Shown one piece after another: positions 19,272-25,200 of a stretch of DNA of 64,000 bases (position 1 is the first letter of the stretch; each line of letters begins with the position of its first letter). The stretch lies in assembly GCF_024298765.1 (NCBI RefSeq), contig NZ_CP101210.1; one strand, written 5' to 3'. Made by a program: the position numbers. The DNA comes from Escherichia coli. Its GTDB lineage: Bacteria > Pseudomonadota > Gammaproteobacteria > Enterobacterales > Enterobacteriaceae.

Positions 19272-22200
19272 GGAATGTTCATCTTGTGCTGTTGCACGGA
19301 TGGGGACTGAATGCCGAAGTGTGGCGTTGCATTGACGAGGAACTGAGCTCGCATTTTACGCTGCACCTTGTTGACCTGCCCGGCTTCGGGCGTAGCCGGG
19401 GATTTGGTGCGATGTCACTTGCTGATATGGCCGAAGCCGTGCTGCGACAGGCACCTGATAAAGCCATTTGGTTAGGCTGGAGTCTGGGCGGGCTGGTGGC
19501 AAGCCAGATTGCGTTAACCCATCCCGAGCGTGTTCAGGCGCTGGTCACCGTGGCGTCGTCGCCTTGTTTTAGTGCTCGTGACGAGTGGCCGGGGATAAAA
19601 CCGGACGTGCTGGCGGGATTTCAGCAGCAACTCAGTGATGATTTTCAGCGTACAGTGGAACGGTTCCTTGCGTTACAAACCATGGGTACTGAAACGGCGC
19701 GCCAGGATGCGCGGGCGCTGAAGAAAACCGTTCTGGCGTTACCGATGCCGGAGGTTGACGTGCTTAATGGCGGGCTGGAAATCCTGAAAACGGTCGATCT
19801 CCGTCAGCCGCTGCAAAACGTGTCCATGCCGTTTTTGCGATTGTATGGCTATCTCGATGGTCTGGTGCCGCGCAAAGTGGTGCCGATGCTGGATAAACTC
19901 TGGCCGCACAGCGAGTCGTACATTTTCGCCAAAGCGGCCCATGCGCCGTTTATTTCGCATCCGGTCGAGTTTCGTCACGTGCTGGTGGCGTTGAAGCAGA
20001 GGGTGTAGGTGGCTTTTGAAATGGCGAGACAGAATTTTACTGACTCGCCGCAGCCAACTCTTCTTCTGACACCCCGGTAAAGCGCATGATGTCCGCAAGA
20101 GGGACTCCGGATTACAGCATTCTTTTGGCGATATCCAGGGCTTCCAGGCGTCGACCCAATAAATAACCAATCAGGTAACTAATAAGATATTCTCTTTCTG
20201 CATCTGTCATTAAAACCATCCTTTACGTTATTGATGATTTATTTCAGCAAGGTCTTCAACCGTCAGGCTGGTAAATCGCAGAACGTCCTCAAGAGAAACT
20301 CCGGCGTCCAGCATGGTTTTGGCAATATTTAGGGCGTTGGTACGTATACCTTTCTGAAACCCTTCCTGCCGCAATCTTTCCGCAATAGTCATTAAGCTCT
20401 CCTTGTGTTTCGGTGAATGTTCGGCAACGCCGTCGATAAAATCGTTAAAACGTACCGCATCGCCGGTTTGCAAGATGTAATTAAACAGCCCTTTGATTTG
20501 TCTGTCATTAGCGTATCCACTACTTAATAAGCAGGCCATTTGCTCTACCAGCCCCATCAGATCGCGTTGACGAATATGTTTTTGAATTAACTCCAGCAGC
20601 GCCATACGTCGGTGCTGCATGATTTCATCATCAGGCATGACGGTGACATCAATCAGCGGAAATGCGGAGGCATAAAGCTGCCTTGCCAGGTTGGGATCGG
20701 CGAAACAATCCAGCCAACACAGCGAATAGGGATAGGGGCTTTCAATACCGTGGTAAAACAACAATGGCACCACCATCGGCAACGTTTTGTATCCGGCATC
20801 CAGGTGATTTTGCATTGCGGCAATAGCGTAACGCATCATGCGAAATGCGATCAGTTTGTTTGAGGTGCTTTGATGTTCAATCAGACAATAGATATATCCC
20901 GGTCCTTGTTCCGTTTTCACCGACCACAGCACGTCGGAATAGCTTTCACGCAGATCGTCATCAATAAAGCTGCTCGACTCCAGCTTGAGGGTTTTCATAT
21001 CACAGAGCGCGTGAATAGGTGCCGGTAAATGGAACGCAAGAAAATCGCGTGCCGTGTCCGGTTGGCGTAAAAAGAGTTTGAATAGTGCATCATGTGGGGT
21101 GGAACTCTGCTTTTTGCTCATGGCGTTCCTTCACCTGTTGTTTGAATGCCGTGACTCTACGCGCCACTCCACACCTGTGCATTAGCGAGTTTTCATCCCT
21201 GCGAGACGCTTTCAGAGGAACTTACGTTGTACTGCAAGGGTTGCATTTTTATGGAAAGCCGTGACTAGTCCTGATATACGTTGACACTTTTCTGTCTGTA
21301 AAACGCCTGATGAACGTCATCGGGTGTTTTGTATTTCAGAGCCAGATGTGGCCGCTCATGGTTATAAATTGCCACGGACTCTTTGACCATTTCCCGGGCC
21401 TGCGCCAGGTCTGCAGGACGCGAGAGTAAAAACTCATTTTTCAGGATACCGTTTATTCGCTCAGCCAGTGCGTTCTGGTAGCAGTCATAACCATCCGTCA
21501 TTGAACAGGTTATTCCATTTCTTTCATGAACTGACTGATAGAGCGCTGAACAGTATTGCAGCCCCCTGTCAGAATGATGCACCAGGGGACTCGTCGTTTT
21601 TCTCAGCCTCAGCGCCTGTCTGAACGCTTTTACCACATTTTCTGTCTGCAGGTTTTCCCCAACATGGTAGCCCATAATTTTTCTGGAGCAGGCATCGGTG
21701 ACCAGACTCAGATAGGCCGTACCATTGCGCAGTGGAAGGTAAGTAATATCGGCGACCCAGACCTGTTCTGGTTCAAGAGCGGTAACCTGTTCAGGGCCTG
21801 GTTTAAGCAGGTTTGGATGTCGGTAGAAGCGATGATGACTGTTGGTAGTTTTGTGATATGCCCGTTTTACTGGCACCAGGAGTCGGTATTCATCGAGCAG
21901 GTTAAACAGGCGGTCTCGCCCGATATTCAGCCTTTTATCGGCCTGAGTGTTCAGCAGATAGTGCAGCTTACGCGCACCGATTCGGGGCTGACGACATCTG
22001 ACACGGGCAACAAAATCAAGAACCTGAGCATGATGTTCCTGCCGTTTTCTGCGCCTTGTGTTGTCCTGATACCATGCCTGTCTGCTGTGTCCCAGGAACA
22101 GACATGCACGCGTCACAGTTATTTTGGGGGCCGGACTTTGCGCGAGGACTTGCCGGGCCGCTTTTTTACGATACTCACCCCGTAATCATTTTTAAGGACA

Positions 22201-25200
22201 TTGATAACTGACTCAAAAAACTCAGCTTTCTGGTTCGCCAGCTCAAGCTGCGCTTCAAGTTCCCTGATTCTTTGCTCGGGTGTGAGCGGGATAGTTGTCT
22301 GAGTCACAGGCAGTTTCCTCTTCACCAGGTCAGGAAGTCCAGGACTCCAGTCAAGCCGGCCATATTTACGTAACCAGACAAGAACGGTGGAGCGCCCCTG
22401 AATGCCATACCGCTGCTGGGCCTGTTTATAGGTCATCTCGCCTTTTTCAACCTGCTCAACAACAGCTATTTTAAAGGATAGAGGATAATCACGTTGGGTG
22501 CGTTTGAACTCAGTCATCATCACGTTCTCCGGATTTAAGTCAGGAACGTGTCAACGCTATTCAGGACGGGTCACCGCACGCAAAAAAGCCCGGATGCAAA
22601 CGCATACCGGGCTTTTCAAAACAGGCGATGGAGTATGGTTAACGCAGCGCCCACCACTCGCGCAGACAGGCTTTGCCTTCCGGGCAGCTTTTACAACTGC
22701 CAGAGAGGCAGCCGTCAGGTTCTTCCTGAATCCGCACGGCTTTGCCCATGCTTTCCAGCTGTTGCAGCATGGCGTTAATCATTGGCTGCGGAGTGTTCAA
22801 TGTCTGGCTTATCTGGGCCGCTTCCATACGGCCCCGTAACGCCAGCAAATCACGCACCTGAATAAGTGAAGCCATTAATGGCAATCACCGGTGGTGCTGG
22901 CTGCGCAGCAACTGCTTACCGACTTGCGGGTTGCCAGCAGTTCGATATCCACCCGGCTACGCGCGCGGCGCAGCAGACCGATAACCACGATGTTAAACAG
23001 GATAACCGCCAGAATGCACACCAGGCTGTAAGTTGGGTGCTGACTGTAGCTGGCGACCTGATAGAACAATGTTGCCAGCGAGTAAGCGATATTCAGCCCC
23101 CACAGGATGGAGAAGCCCATCCAGCCACGGCTTGATTCACGGGCGATGGCTCCCATCACCGAGATACATGGTACATACAGCAGGACGAAAATCAGGTAGC
23201 TGTAAGCTGCTGCTGCGCTACCGAATTTCTGATCCATCACGCCCATCGCCCCGGTCCCCATTTCGCCGTCGCCTTTGCTGGCTTCAATGGGGTTCATCAG
23301 TACGCTAAGGCTGAAGGTGTCTTTCAGGCTCTGCCAGGTTTCATCTATCGCACTGAACAGCTCTTCACCGAGGTTAAATTCCGCCGGATTGAACTCTTCG
23401 TCCTGAATATTTTCTGCGGTGTAGAGGGTGTTGAGCGTACCCACTACCACTTCTTTCGCCATGGCACCTGTAAACAGGCCAACCGTTGCCTGCCAGTTAT
23501 CTTCATGCACGCCAATCGGCTTGAAGACTGGGGTGATCACCCGGCTGACGGAAGCCAGCGCCGAGTCGTTGATGTTATCGACGATTTTCCCGCTCAGAGA
23601 GAAGCTGTTGAAAGCACTCAGGAAAATGCTGACGATGATAATCACTTTACCAGCACGCAGAACGAAGCCTTTCAGACGCTGCCAGGTCTGGATAATCAGG
23701 CTTTTAACGTGTGGTACATGGTAGACCGGCAGCTCCATGACAAACGGCGTCGCTTCACCGCGCATGATGGTGTACTTGAGCATCAGGCCCGTCAGCACCG
23801 CCATTACGATACCCAGCATATACAGCGAGAAGACCGCCAGCGCACCGTTCTGCCCGAAGAAGGCAGCCGCGAATACTGCGAAGATAGCCAGACGTGCGCC
23901 GCAGGACATAAACGGTGCCATCATGATGGTCATCAGGCGTTCACGCGGTGCATCAAGCGTACGTGCGCCCATTACCGATGGTACGTTACAACCGAAGCCG
24001 ACGATCAGCGGTACAAAGGATTTCCCCGGCAAGCCCAGCGCCTGCATCAGGCGGTCCATCACAAACGCCGCACGCGCCATATAGCCGGAGTCCTCAAGGA
24101 AGGAGAGGAACAGGTACATCATGCCGATCTGCGGCACCAGTGGCAGCACGGTGTTAATACCGCCACCCAGGCCCTGGGCGAGGAAGATAGTCAGCCAGTC
24201 CGGGAAGTGGAGCGTGTAGCCAATCCATTGAATACCATGCACAAATAGCGCCACGGAGCCGACGTCAAACAGCGGCTGTAACGCCCCGCCGATGTTGATA
24301 GCCAGCAGGAACATCAGGTACATCACAAAGAGGAAAATCGGCAGACCGAGGAAACGGTTGAGCACGATTTTATCTACCGCAGTGGTGAAACGGCTGGGTT
24401 CTGCCGTCAGGGTGTTGCTTACCACATCACAGATGGCAGCAATGCACTGGTAACGCGCATCGGCAATGTGCAGCGCCGGATCGTCCATCTCATTACGCAG
24501 ACGGGCGAGGGCGGCATCCAGATGCTGCGACGCTTCACCGGCGTAGGCGCGGCTGTAGATATCGCCTTCCAGCATTTGCAGGCCCAGCCAGCGACGTTGT
24601 TTCAGCGGGATGTCGGAAGGCATCACTTTTGCCAGTGAATCTGCTTCGTTGAGTAGCGGCTGTGCGTAATGCACCAGTTCCACATTCTCGTTAGCTTTAT
24701 AGCGATCAATCGCCAGCTTGAGCGCTTCAATACCGCGACCACGGGTTGAAACCAGCGGGATCACCGGGCAGCCAAGACGCGCCGACAGAGCATCAATTTC
24801 AATACGAATATTTTGCTTCTCGGCAATGTCGAGCATGTTCAGTGCCACGATGCAGGGAATGCCGAGTTCCAACAGTTGCAGCGTCAGGTACAGGTTACGC
24901 TCAAGGTTAGACGCATCCACCACGTTAATCAGCAGGTCTGCGTCGCCACTCAAAATGTAGTGACAGGCGATTTGCTCATCGAGCGAGGTCTGCGATGAGA
25001 TGGTGGTCAGAGAATAGGTGCCGGGCAGGTCCACCAGCGTGACCTGATGATCGGTGGTGGAGAATTGCCCTTCTTTACGTTCGACGGTAACGCCAGCCCA
25101 GTTACCTACACGCTGACGTGCGCCAGTGAGCTGGTTAAATAACGTTGTCTTGCCAGAATTTGGATTACCAATTAAGCCAATGGTTAATTTTTTCATTGTT

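What the first reader, a model, noticed from the sequence alone, without database searches (positions are those of the whole stretch)
21259..22576. Intact IS3-family element with CCG target-site duplication, upstream of rpnA
A 1312-bp element is bounded by imperfect inverted repeats (TGACTAGTCCTGATATACGTTGACAC... and the reverse complement of ...GTGTCAACGCTATTCAGGACGGGTCA) and flanked by a direct CCG repeat. It carries orfA and orfB in 0/-1 frames with a canonical A_AAA_AAG slippery heptamer and an intact DDE triad, so it looks recently active. It lies about 140 bp upstream of rpnA, in the same orientation, and 10-15 bp from the feoABC terminator, so read-through or an IS-borne outward promoter could change rpnA expression. 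I could not assign it to a named IS.
Basis: seen in the sequence. Interest (0 to 1): 0.45.

Follow-up and report, generated by a model that had tools for sequence, protein, structure and literature searches.

The report
Terminator-homing ISSen1-type insertion sequence
This is an ordinary, intact, recently mobile IS3-family insertion sequence (a close relative of ISSen1), but its position just past the feoABC terminator is not chance, because this group of elements lands at a fixed distance after transcription terminators.

Summary
Window 21262-22573 (minus strand) is a 1312-bp IS3-family element. It has 26-nt imperfect inverted repeats (TG...CA) and orfA/orfB in 0/-1 frames with one A_AAA_AAG heptamer. 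The DD(35)E+K motif is intact and a 3-bp CCG duplication flanks the element.

Removing the element and one CCG gives a sequence 100% identical over 500 bp to E. coli 2014C-3338. It is uninterrupted in 5405 of 5426 complete E. coli genomes, and 18 genomes share this insertion. Identical copies lie at many other loci, so the element was active recently. The closest named relative is ISSen1 (91% nt, 94% aa), so the element is already known.

The new point is the target. In 63 of 71 independent insertions of this clade (66-100% aa identity; Escherichia, Salmonella, Serratia, Erwinia, Pantoea, Tatumella, Aeromonas, Pseudomonas), the left end lies 13-15 nt past a GC-rich stem and T-tract. The orientation is always the same. 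Background is 0.7% of positions (P about 1e-105). I found no paper describing this.

No outward promoter is predicted, so an effect on rpnA remains speculation.

The parts
21259..21261 (.). Target-site duplication, IRR-side copy (CCG on + strand, CGG in the IS sense)
   Evidence: Sequence. The empty site with a single CCG is 100% identical in NZ_CP027452.1.
21262..21287 (-). Right inverted repeat (IRR), ending ...CAGGACTAGTCA-3' in the IS sense
   Evidence: Matches IRL at 20 of 26 positions. The same end is seen in copies at 11 other loci.
21265..22185 (-). orfB reading frame (-1 relative to orfA). The stop codon lies 3 nt inside the IRR tip. Encodes the DDE catalytic domain.
   Evidence: NCBIfam NF033516 260 bits against cut-off 160. 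Pfam rve and rve_3. D258, D318, E354, K361.
22161..22167 (-). Slippery heptamer A_AAA_AAG for programmed -1 ribosomal frameshifting. Slippage gives the 418-aa OrfAB.
   Evidence: It is the only occurrence in the element, in the correct phase, inside the orfA/orfB overlap. RefSeq annotates identical copies as 'programmed frameshift'. It is conserved in the ISSen1-family copy.
22119..22520 (-). orfA (133 aa): N-terminal helix-turn-helix followed by a heptad-rich region
   Evidence: Pfam HTH_28 at residues 16-54. The exact protein is seen on at least 1000 public contigs.
22548..22573 (-). Left inverted repeat (IRL), 5'-TGACCCGTCCTGAATAGCGTTGACAC. Perfectly conserved in relatives down to about 65% nt identity.
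22574..22576 (.). Target-site duplication, IRL-side copy (CCG)
22582..22616 (-). feoABC intrinsic terminator, host DNA and the recognised target. The GC stem is 22588-22593/22607-22612 with an inner stem and a GUUU loop, followed on the minus strand by six T (22582-22587).
   Evidence: Fold of -34.2 kcal/mol, z = -5.1. Inverted repeat I20. Present in the empty site. It sits in the same register as 63 of 71 insertions of the clade.
20228..21121 (-). rpnA, the downstream neighbour (not part of the element). Its start codon is 140 nt from the IS end.
   Evidence: NCBIfam NF007361, 674 bits.
22639..22875 (-). feoC, the upstream neighbour (not part of the element). Its stop codon is 62 nt from the IS end.
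   Evidence: NCBIfam NF011960, 176 bits, residues 4-81 of the listed ORF.

Best explanation
Window 21262-22573 is one intact copy of an ISSen1-type IS3-family insertion sequence on the minus strand.

Shown here:
- It encodes OrfA, a helix-turn-helix protein.
- A -1 slip on A_AAA_AAG would produce a 418-aa OrfAB transposase with an intact DD(35)E+K catalytic motif.
- It is bounded by 26-nt TG...CA inverted repeats and a 3-bp duplication.
- Identical copies sit at many loci, and the site is empty in a genome whose flanks are 100% identical over 500 bp.

Inferred from the IS3-family paradigm (IS911, IS2, IS3):
- OrfAB copies the element out as a circle with abutted ends and pastes it in with a 3-bp staggered cut.

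Shown statistically, mechanism inferred:
- The site was chosen, not random. This clade integrates at the downstream edge of intrinsic-terminator-like DNA.
- IRL joins 13-15 nt past the base of a GC-rich stem, which is 5-6 nt past the T-tract. The transposase gene points the same way as the terminated transcript.
- The T-tract in register persists even where no hairpin is detectable, and intragenic hits also carry the motif. My best guess is therefore that the transpososome directly reads the GC-stem/T-tract junction about one helical turn from the strand-transfer site.

Consequences at this locus (inferred):
- The feoABC terminator stays intact.
- The IS is shielded from feo read-through.
- rpnA keeps its own 140-nt upstream region, so any effect on rpnA is probably small.
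For: - Anatomy.
- Empty site 100% identical.
- Same insertion in 18 genomes.
- About 250 genomes carry full copies, with up to 5 matching places per genome.
- Identical boundaries and independent 3-bp duplications.
- ISSen1 relationship.
- Target register: T at -13..-9 in 52-57 of 60 flanks, C at -15 in 50 of 60, and the T-tract starts at -14, -13 or -15 in 55 of 60.
- Rule met in 53 of 60 flanks against a 0.72% background, P about 1e-105.
- A perfect hairpin abuts the T-tract in 46 of 57 flanks, against 9.7% of background C+T-run positions.
- ISAs31 in Aeromonas (66% aa) 5 of 5, a Pseudomonas relative 4 of 5 by the rule (5 of 5 by eye), and Serratia 1 of 1.
- The terminator folds at -34.2 kcal/mol, z = -5.1.
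Against: - There is no transposition experiment, so targeting is inferred from surviving insertions.
- The hairpin and the GC/T-tract sequence are not separated as determinants. My background control mixes coding and intergenic positions.
- Exceptions exist. The lsrD-lsrB copy (L005) has no motif, and 7 of 60 flanks fail the rule.
- Acidovorax and Variovorax elements share the identical 26-nt IRL, yet only 1 of 18 shows the motif.
- No stimulatory RNA structure was detected downstream of the heptamer (z = +1.0).
Confidence: 0.8

Rival explanations
1. The terminator association reflects survivorship, not targeting. Insertions are random, and only those in harmless intergenic DNA downstream of genes, or shielded from read-through, persist.
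For: Most sites are intergenic and follow gene 3' ends. A preprint reports terminator-like sequences over-represented upstream of ISs of several families and interprets this as promoting persistence.
Against: Selection cannot set a +/-1-nt register (55 of 60 T-tracts start at -13 to -15) or a single orientation. Insertions inside genes (trbJ, a TonB-dependent receptor, a disrupted CDS, prophage genes) still carry the motif in register.
Confidence: 0.08
2. One reading: the IS alters rpnA expression, through an outward or hybrid promoter at the IRR or through read-through of the transposase transcript.
For: The IS and rpnA are co-oriented and 140 nt apart. No terminator-like site was found on that strand between orfB and rpnA. 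IS3-family ends are generally rich in proto-promoters, and at least 26% of characterised IS3s are estimated to encode promoters (PMC12095673).
Against: No sigma-70-like site is found in the region at the tool's threshold. At a relaxed 8/12 threshold the only candidate (TGCACA-16-TAGAGT, 21181-21154) lies in native DNA. The TTGACA hexamers in both repeats face inward. The IS own promoter is expected to be weak, and feo read-through is blocked by the intact terminator.
Confidence: 0.2
3. The hairpin and T-tract are part of the mobile element, so its true left end lies further upstream, rather than being host target DNA.
For: The motif is found next to IRL at nearly every site.
Against: The stem and loop sequences differ at every site. 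The feoC terminator is present in the uninterrupted locus of 5405 genomes. The 3-bp duplications flank the 1312-bp unit exactly.
Confidence: 0.01
4. The copy is an inactive relic fixed long ago.
For: The insertion is shared by 18 genomes, so at this site it is inherited rather than de novo in each. One copy elsewhere (L007) is frameshifted.
Against: Both frames, the heptamer, the DDE triad and both repeats are intact. It is 100% identical to copies at other chromosomal loci and on a plasmid. The site is empty in a genome whose flanks are 100% identical.
Confidence: 0.03

Closest known systems
ISSen1 (IS3 family, Salmonella enterica)
   Same: Same length (1312 bp). The first 31 nt of IRL and the last 17 nt of IRR are identical. 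Same heptamer, same ORF layout and 3-bp duplication. 91.1% nt identity without gaps and 94% aa identity. Both fall in the same 90% protein cluster. The one ISSen1-family copy I examined also follows a T-tract in register.
   Different: It is an E. coli variant, and PGAP labels it only 'IS3 family transposase'. The 94% aa identity is just under the 95% threshold for an isoform (ISfinder's rule as I recall it, not checked here), while the 91% nt identity is just above the 90% threshold. I could not query ISfinder, so the formal name is unresolved.
ISAs31 ('ISSen1-type', Aeromonas) and unnamed Pseudomonas, Serratia, Erwinia, Pantoea and Tatumella relatives
   Same: 66-87% aa identity, near-identical IRL core (TG[AT]CCCGTCCTGAATA), 3-bp duplications, and the same terminator-edge register and orientation.
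   Different: These are separate ISs in other genera. Nothing about their target choice was found in the literature I could search.
IS911, IS2 and IS3 (IS3-family paradigms)
   Same: orfA/orfB with an A6G -1 frameshift, DD(35)E, TG...CA ends and 3-bp duplications. By analogy, copy-out-paste-in transposition through a circle.
   Different: As I recall, these show loose target choice or attraction to sequences resembling their own inverted repeats. No terminator homing is described for them. The transposition mechanism was not tested here.
IS1397 and ISKpn1 (IS3 family, REP/BIME-specific)
   Same: DDE elements of the IS3 family with strong specificity for intergenic palindromic DNA. The transposase is reported to set the specificity (PMC1525189).
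   Different: They insert within REP/BIME palindromes. ISSen1-type elements leave the palindrome intact and land a fixed 13-15 nt past it, after the T-tract, in one orientation.
IS1272 / TnSha1 (staphylococci)
   Same: Targets hairpins, many of which are confirmed transcription terminators (PMC4923244).
   Different: It inserts into the stem with partial deletion of the target and no duplication, in both orientations. The transposase family is unrelated (IS1182 family, from memory).
Group IIC introns; Tn7 at attTn7 (recalled from memory, not tested here)
   Same: Both use 'safe' insertion just downstream of a gene or terminator in a fixed orientation. Group IIC introns use terminator stem-loops as their landmark.
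   Different: Group IIC introns are retroelements guided by RNA and single-stranded DNA. Tn7 uses a dedicated target selector (TnsD) that reads the glmS coding sequence. Neither is a one-protein DDE insertion sequence.

Membership tests
IS3 family | Two consecutive, partly overlapping ORFs (orfA, orfB) in 0/-1 phases with a slippery A6G-type heptamer in the overlap | tested here: met
   orfA is 22520-22119 and the orfB frame opens 18 nt before the single A_AAA_AAG at 22161-22167, which is in correct phase. RefSeq annotates identical copies as 'programmed frameshift'.
IS3 family | DD(35)E catalytic triad with K/R seven residues after E, in an rve integrase-core fold | tested here: met
   D258, D318, E354 (35 residues lie between the second D and E) and K361. 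Pfam rve 77.5 bits and rve_3 71 bits.
IS3 family | Curated family model (NCBIfam NF033516) above its cut-off | tested here: met
   OrfB alone scores 260.2 bits against a cut-off of 160, and OrfA matches the N-terminal part of the model.
IS3 family | Imperfect terminal inverted repeats ending 5'-TG...CA-3', length about 1.2-1.55 kb, and a 3-4 bp target duplication | tested here: met
   TGAC...GTCA ends, 20 of 26 matching, 1312 bp, 3-bp CCG duplication.
IS3 family | Copy-out-paste-in transposition through a figure-of-eight and a circle with abutted ends | not testable with these tools
   This needs circle-junction PCR or in vitro assays.
ISSen1 (same IS or isoform) | More than 90% nt identity and/or more than 95% aa identity to the reference (ISfinder convention, from memory) | tested here: inconclusive
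   91.1% nt and 94% aa identity to copies that PGAP labels 'ISSen1 family'. The ISfinder reference sequence itself was not available.
Terminator-homing ISSen1-type clade (proposed here) | IRL lies 13-15 nt downstream of a GC-rich stem and T-tract, with the transposase co-oriented with the T-tract strand | tested here: met
   In the window, six T begin 14 nt before IRL, next to a -34.2 kcal/mol hairpin. Across the clade 63 of 71 insertions meet the rule, against 0.72% of background positions.
REP/BIME-targeting IS3 elements (IS1397-like) | Insertion inside REP/BIME palindromic units | tested here: not met
   The palindromes are unrelated in sequence, are each followed by a T-tract, and are left intact. 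The insertion lies outside them.

The most novel reading that the evidence does not exclude
ISSen1-type elements form a previously undescribed terminator-homing subgroup of the IS3 family. A one-protein DDE transposase would read the GC-stem/T-tract junction of intrinsic terminators and integrate about one helical turn downstream in a single orientation. This gives the element a harmless, transcriptionally insulated site. It would also offer a tractable model for target selection by copy-out-paste-in transposases.
Probability: 0.45. Interest if true: 0.6.

Novelty: already known. Interest (0 to 1): 0.38.

Why it matters
The insertion itself is routine. It is a polymorphic IS copy in one E. coli lineage, and it disrupts no gene.

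What matters is the rule behind its position. A widespread clade of IS3-family elements places itself within +/-1 nt of the downstream edge of intrinsic terminators, always in the same orientation.

- If this is direct recognition by the transposase, it is a simple natural system for studying how a DDE transpososome picks a target.
- It explains why these elements are tolerated: genes and terminators are left intact.
- It makes their insertion sites predictable in genome annotation.
- Inverted copies of the element can also act as substrates for large inversions, as seen in APEC (avian pathogenic E. coli) strain E12049.

Tried and rejected
- Outward or hybrid promoter at the IRR: none was found at the tool's threshold or at 8/12.
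- Stimulatory RNA structure 3' of the heptamer: the fold is no better than shuffles, z = +1.0.
- Rfam scan of the region: only a sub-threshold hit to a Burkholderia sRNA candidate.
- Other copies or fragments of the element in the 64-kb window: none.
- Terminator scan tool: it missed the feoC terminator because it does not allow the bulged stem. The hairpin was confirmed by folding instead.
- My first hairpin-offset measure was confounded because A/T pairs extended the stems. I replaced it with a position profile and the T-tract start.
- IRR motif search in distant relatives found only 2 complete copies because their IRRs differ.
- Literature: nine full-text searches found no description of ISSen1 or ISAs31 target choice. 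They found only general or different precedents.
- The idea that the target resembles the IS's own repeats, as in IS911-type attraction: no resemblance by eye.
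Full report
**Observation.** The region was read directly and ORFs were listed.
- The element occupies 21262-22573 (1312 bp) on the minus strand, between feoC (22639-22875) and rpnA (20228-21121). Both neighbours were confirmed with curated NCBIfam models.
- CCG lies on both sides, at 21259-21261 and 22574-22576.
- The termini are imperfect inverted repeats, TGACCCGTCCTGAATAGCGTTGACAC (IRL) and TGACTAGTCCTGATATACGTTGACAC (IRR). They match at 20 of 26 positions and form the longest inverted pair in the region.
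- orfA (133 aa from the ATG at 22520) and the orfB frame overlap by 67 nt. The only A_AAA_AAG in the element (22161-22167) lies in that overlap, in the phase needed for a -1 slip, and gives a 418-aa OrfAB.
- OrfAB carries HTH_28, rve and rve_3 and D258, D318, E354 and K361. OrfB alone scores 260 bits on the IS3 family model, against a cut-off of 160.

**Are the ends and the duplication real?** I deleted the 1312 bp and one CCG and searched the 500-bp reconstruction.
- It is 100% identical to E. coli 2014C-3338 and is uninterrupted in 5405 of 5426 complete genomes, including K-12 derivatives.
- The IS/rpnA junction is present at 100% identity in 18 genomes, from poultry, pig, dog and human sources.
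- Copies at 99.3-100% identity and with the same boundaries (one copy is 1 bp shorter) occur at 11 other loci that I fetched, including an F-type plasmid. Most have their own 3-bp duplications.
- About 250 genomes carry full-length copies, with up to 5 matching places per genome. The window holds only this copy.
- The element is therefore intact and was mobile recently. At this site, however, it is inherited within one lineage.

**Name.**
- RefSeq labels identical copies 'IS3 family transposase, programmed frameshift'.
- Salmonella copies of exactly 1312 bp, at 90.8-91.1% nt identity, are labelled 'IS3-like element ISSen1 family'. They align without gaps and have identical termini.
- OrfAB is 94% identical to an ISSen1-family protein and sits in the same 90% cluster.
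- The next named relative is ISAs31, described as 'ISSen1-type', at 66% aa identity.
- ISSen1 is listed among the mobile elements of some E. coli isolates in published genome surveys.
- ISfinder itself could not be queried.

**The position is not incidental.**
- I oriented 12 independent sites by the transposase strand. In almost all of them, a GC-rich hairpin and a T-tract lay immediately upstream of IRL.
- A scan of one genome per species with the 26-nt IRL gave 74 loci in Serratia, Erwinia, Tatumella, Pantoea, Klebsiella, Kluyvera, Citrobacter and marine gammaproteobacterial metagenome-assembled genomes. It also found Acidovorax and Variovorax. These elements are only 65-94% identical to the window copy.
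- Among 60 unique gammaproteobacterial flanks, T occupies -13 to -9 in 52-57 and C occupies -15 in 50. The T-tract starts at -14 (35 flanks), -13 (14) or -15 (6).
- A simple register rule is met by 53 of 60 flanks, against 0.72% of all positions (P about 1e-105).
- A perfect hairpin abuts the T-tract in 46 of 57 flanks, against 9.7% of background C+T-run positions.
- ISAs31 in Aeromonas (5 sites), a Pseudomonas relative (5 sites) and a Serratia prophage copy (1 site) gave 10 of 11 by the rule, each with its own 3-bp duplication.
- In the window, the feoC terminator (-34.2 kcal/mol, z = -5.1) ends 14 nt from IRL, which is the modal register.

**Targeting or survivorship?**
- The +/-1-nt register and the single orientation cannot come from selection alone.
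- Intragenic insertions (trbJ, a TonB-dependent receptor, a disrupted CDS, prophage genes) still carry the motif.
- Where no hairpin is detectable, the GC-rich/T-tract junction remains in register (L097, L100, L101). The primary landmark may therefore be that junction rather than the palindrome. This point is not resolved.
- Exceptions are the lsrD-lsrB copy and the Acidovorax and Variovorax elements. The latter share the IRL, yet only 1 of 18 shows the motif.

**Consequences at this locus.**
- The terminator is intact, 62 nt after the feoC stop codon.
- rpnA keeps 140 nt of native upstream DNA.
- No sigma-70-like promoter is predicted in the IRR or at the junction. The only weak candidate (21181-21154) lies in native DNA.
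- IS3-family ends often hold proto-promoters (PMC12095673), so an effect on rpnA is possible. It is unsupported here.

**Literature.**
- A preprint reports terminator-like sequences over-represented upstream of ISs at the family level (10.1101/2025.07.22.666184).
- IS1272/TnSha1 inserts into terminator hairpins with deletion of target DNA (PMC4923244).
- IS1397 and ISKpn1 of the IS3 family target REP sequences (PMC1525189).
- Nothing was found on target choice by ISSen1 or ISAs31.

**Verdict.** The finding is correct and the element is an already-known kind, an ISSen1-type IS3-family IS. The added value is the fixed-register terminator homing of the clade. It is strongly supported statistically but has not been tested mechanistically.

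Noticed in passing
L087 (NZ_CP126952.1 257500-264000), IS at 2542-3853: In APEC O78:H4 strain E12049, one IS copy has the proK/RtT-site flank (TGT) on its IRL side and the rpnA flank (CGG) on its IRR side. The gene order is eptB, tRNA-Pro, RtT, IS, rpnA, bioH. Mismatched duplications point to a roughly 175-kb inversion by recombination between the two inverted IS copies seen in related strains.
   Followed up: partly
L034-L040, L048, L050, L071-L080 (Acidovorax, Variovorax): Betaproteobacterial elements carry the identical 26-nt IRL but are only about 67% identical overall. Only 1 of 18 flanks shows the terminator motif, and one copy sits just after a tRNA 3' end. Either the specificity differs, or these high-GC hosts lack suitable T-tract terminators.
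   Followed up: partly
window 22493-22617 (-): A sub-threshold Rfam match (20.6 bits against a gathering score of 70, E = 0.069) to RF02424 Bp2_287, a Burkholderia candidate sRNA family. It spans the terminator, IRL and the orfA 5' end. That family might in fact be the left end of a related IS next to a terminator.
   Followed up: no
plasmids NC_013503.1, NC_016036.1, NC_019013.1 and others: A 368-bp fragment (element positions 1-368) at 99.5% identity recurs in many 42-61 kb plasmids of E. coli, Citrobacter and Morganella. It looks like a truncated copy carried along with a plasmid backbone.
   Followed up: no
L001 (NZ_CP029164.1) 2381-3940 and many genomes: A frequent second site for this IS lies just after tRNA-Pro (proK), abutting an annotated RtT sRNA repeat. 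In strain 104 the IS precedes the RtT unit, while in E12049 an RtT unit precedes the IS, so the repeat number or the site varies.
   Followed up: partly
L004, L006, L007: The duplications have decayed at two sites. They read TGG/CGG at ybiJ-hcxB, and TGT/TGG at the secG-leuU site in L006, while L007 at that same site has an intact TGG/TGG. The L007 copy is 1311 bp and annotated as frameshifted, an example of a copy starting to decay.
   Followed up: partly
window 22582-22616: The feoC terminator is nearly symmetrical, with an A-run before the stem and a T-run after it. On the opposite strand it is followed by only four T (22613-22616), so it could act as a weak terminator for transcription from the opposite direction. 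The IS used the stronger T-tract side.
   Followed up: no
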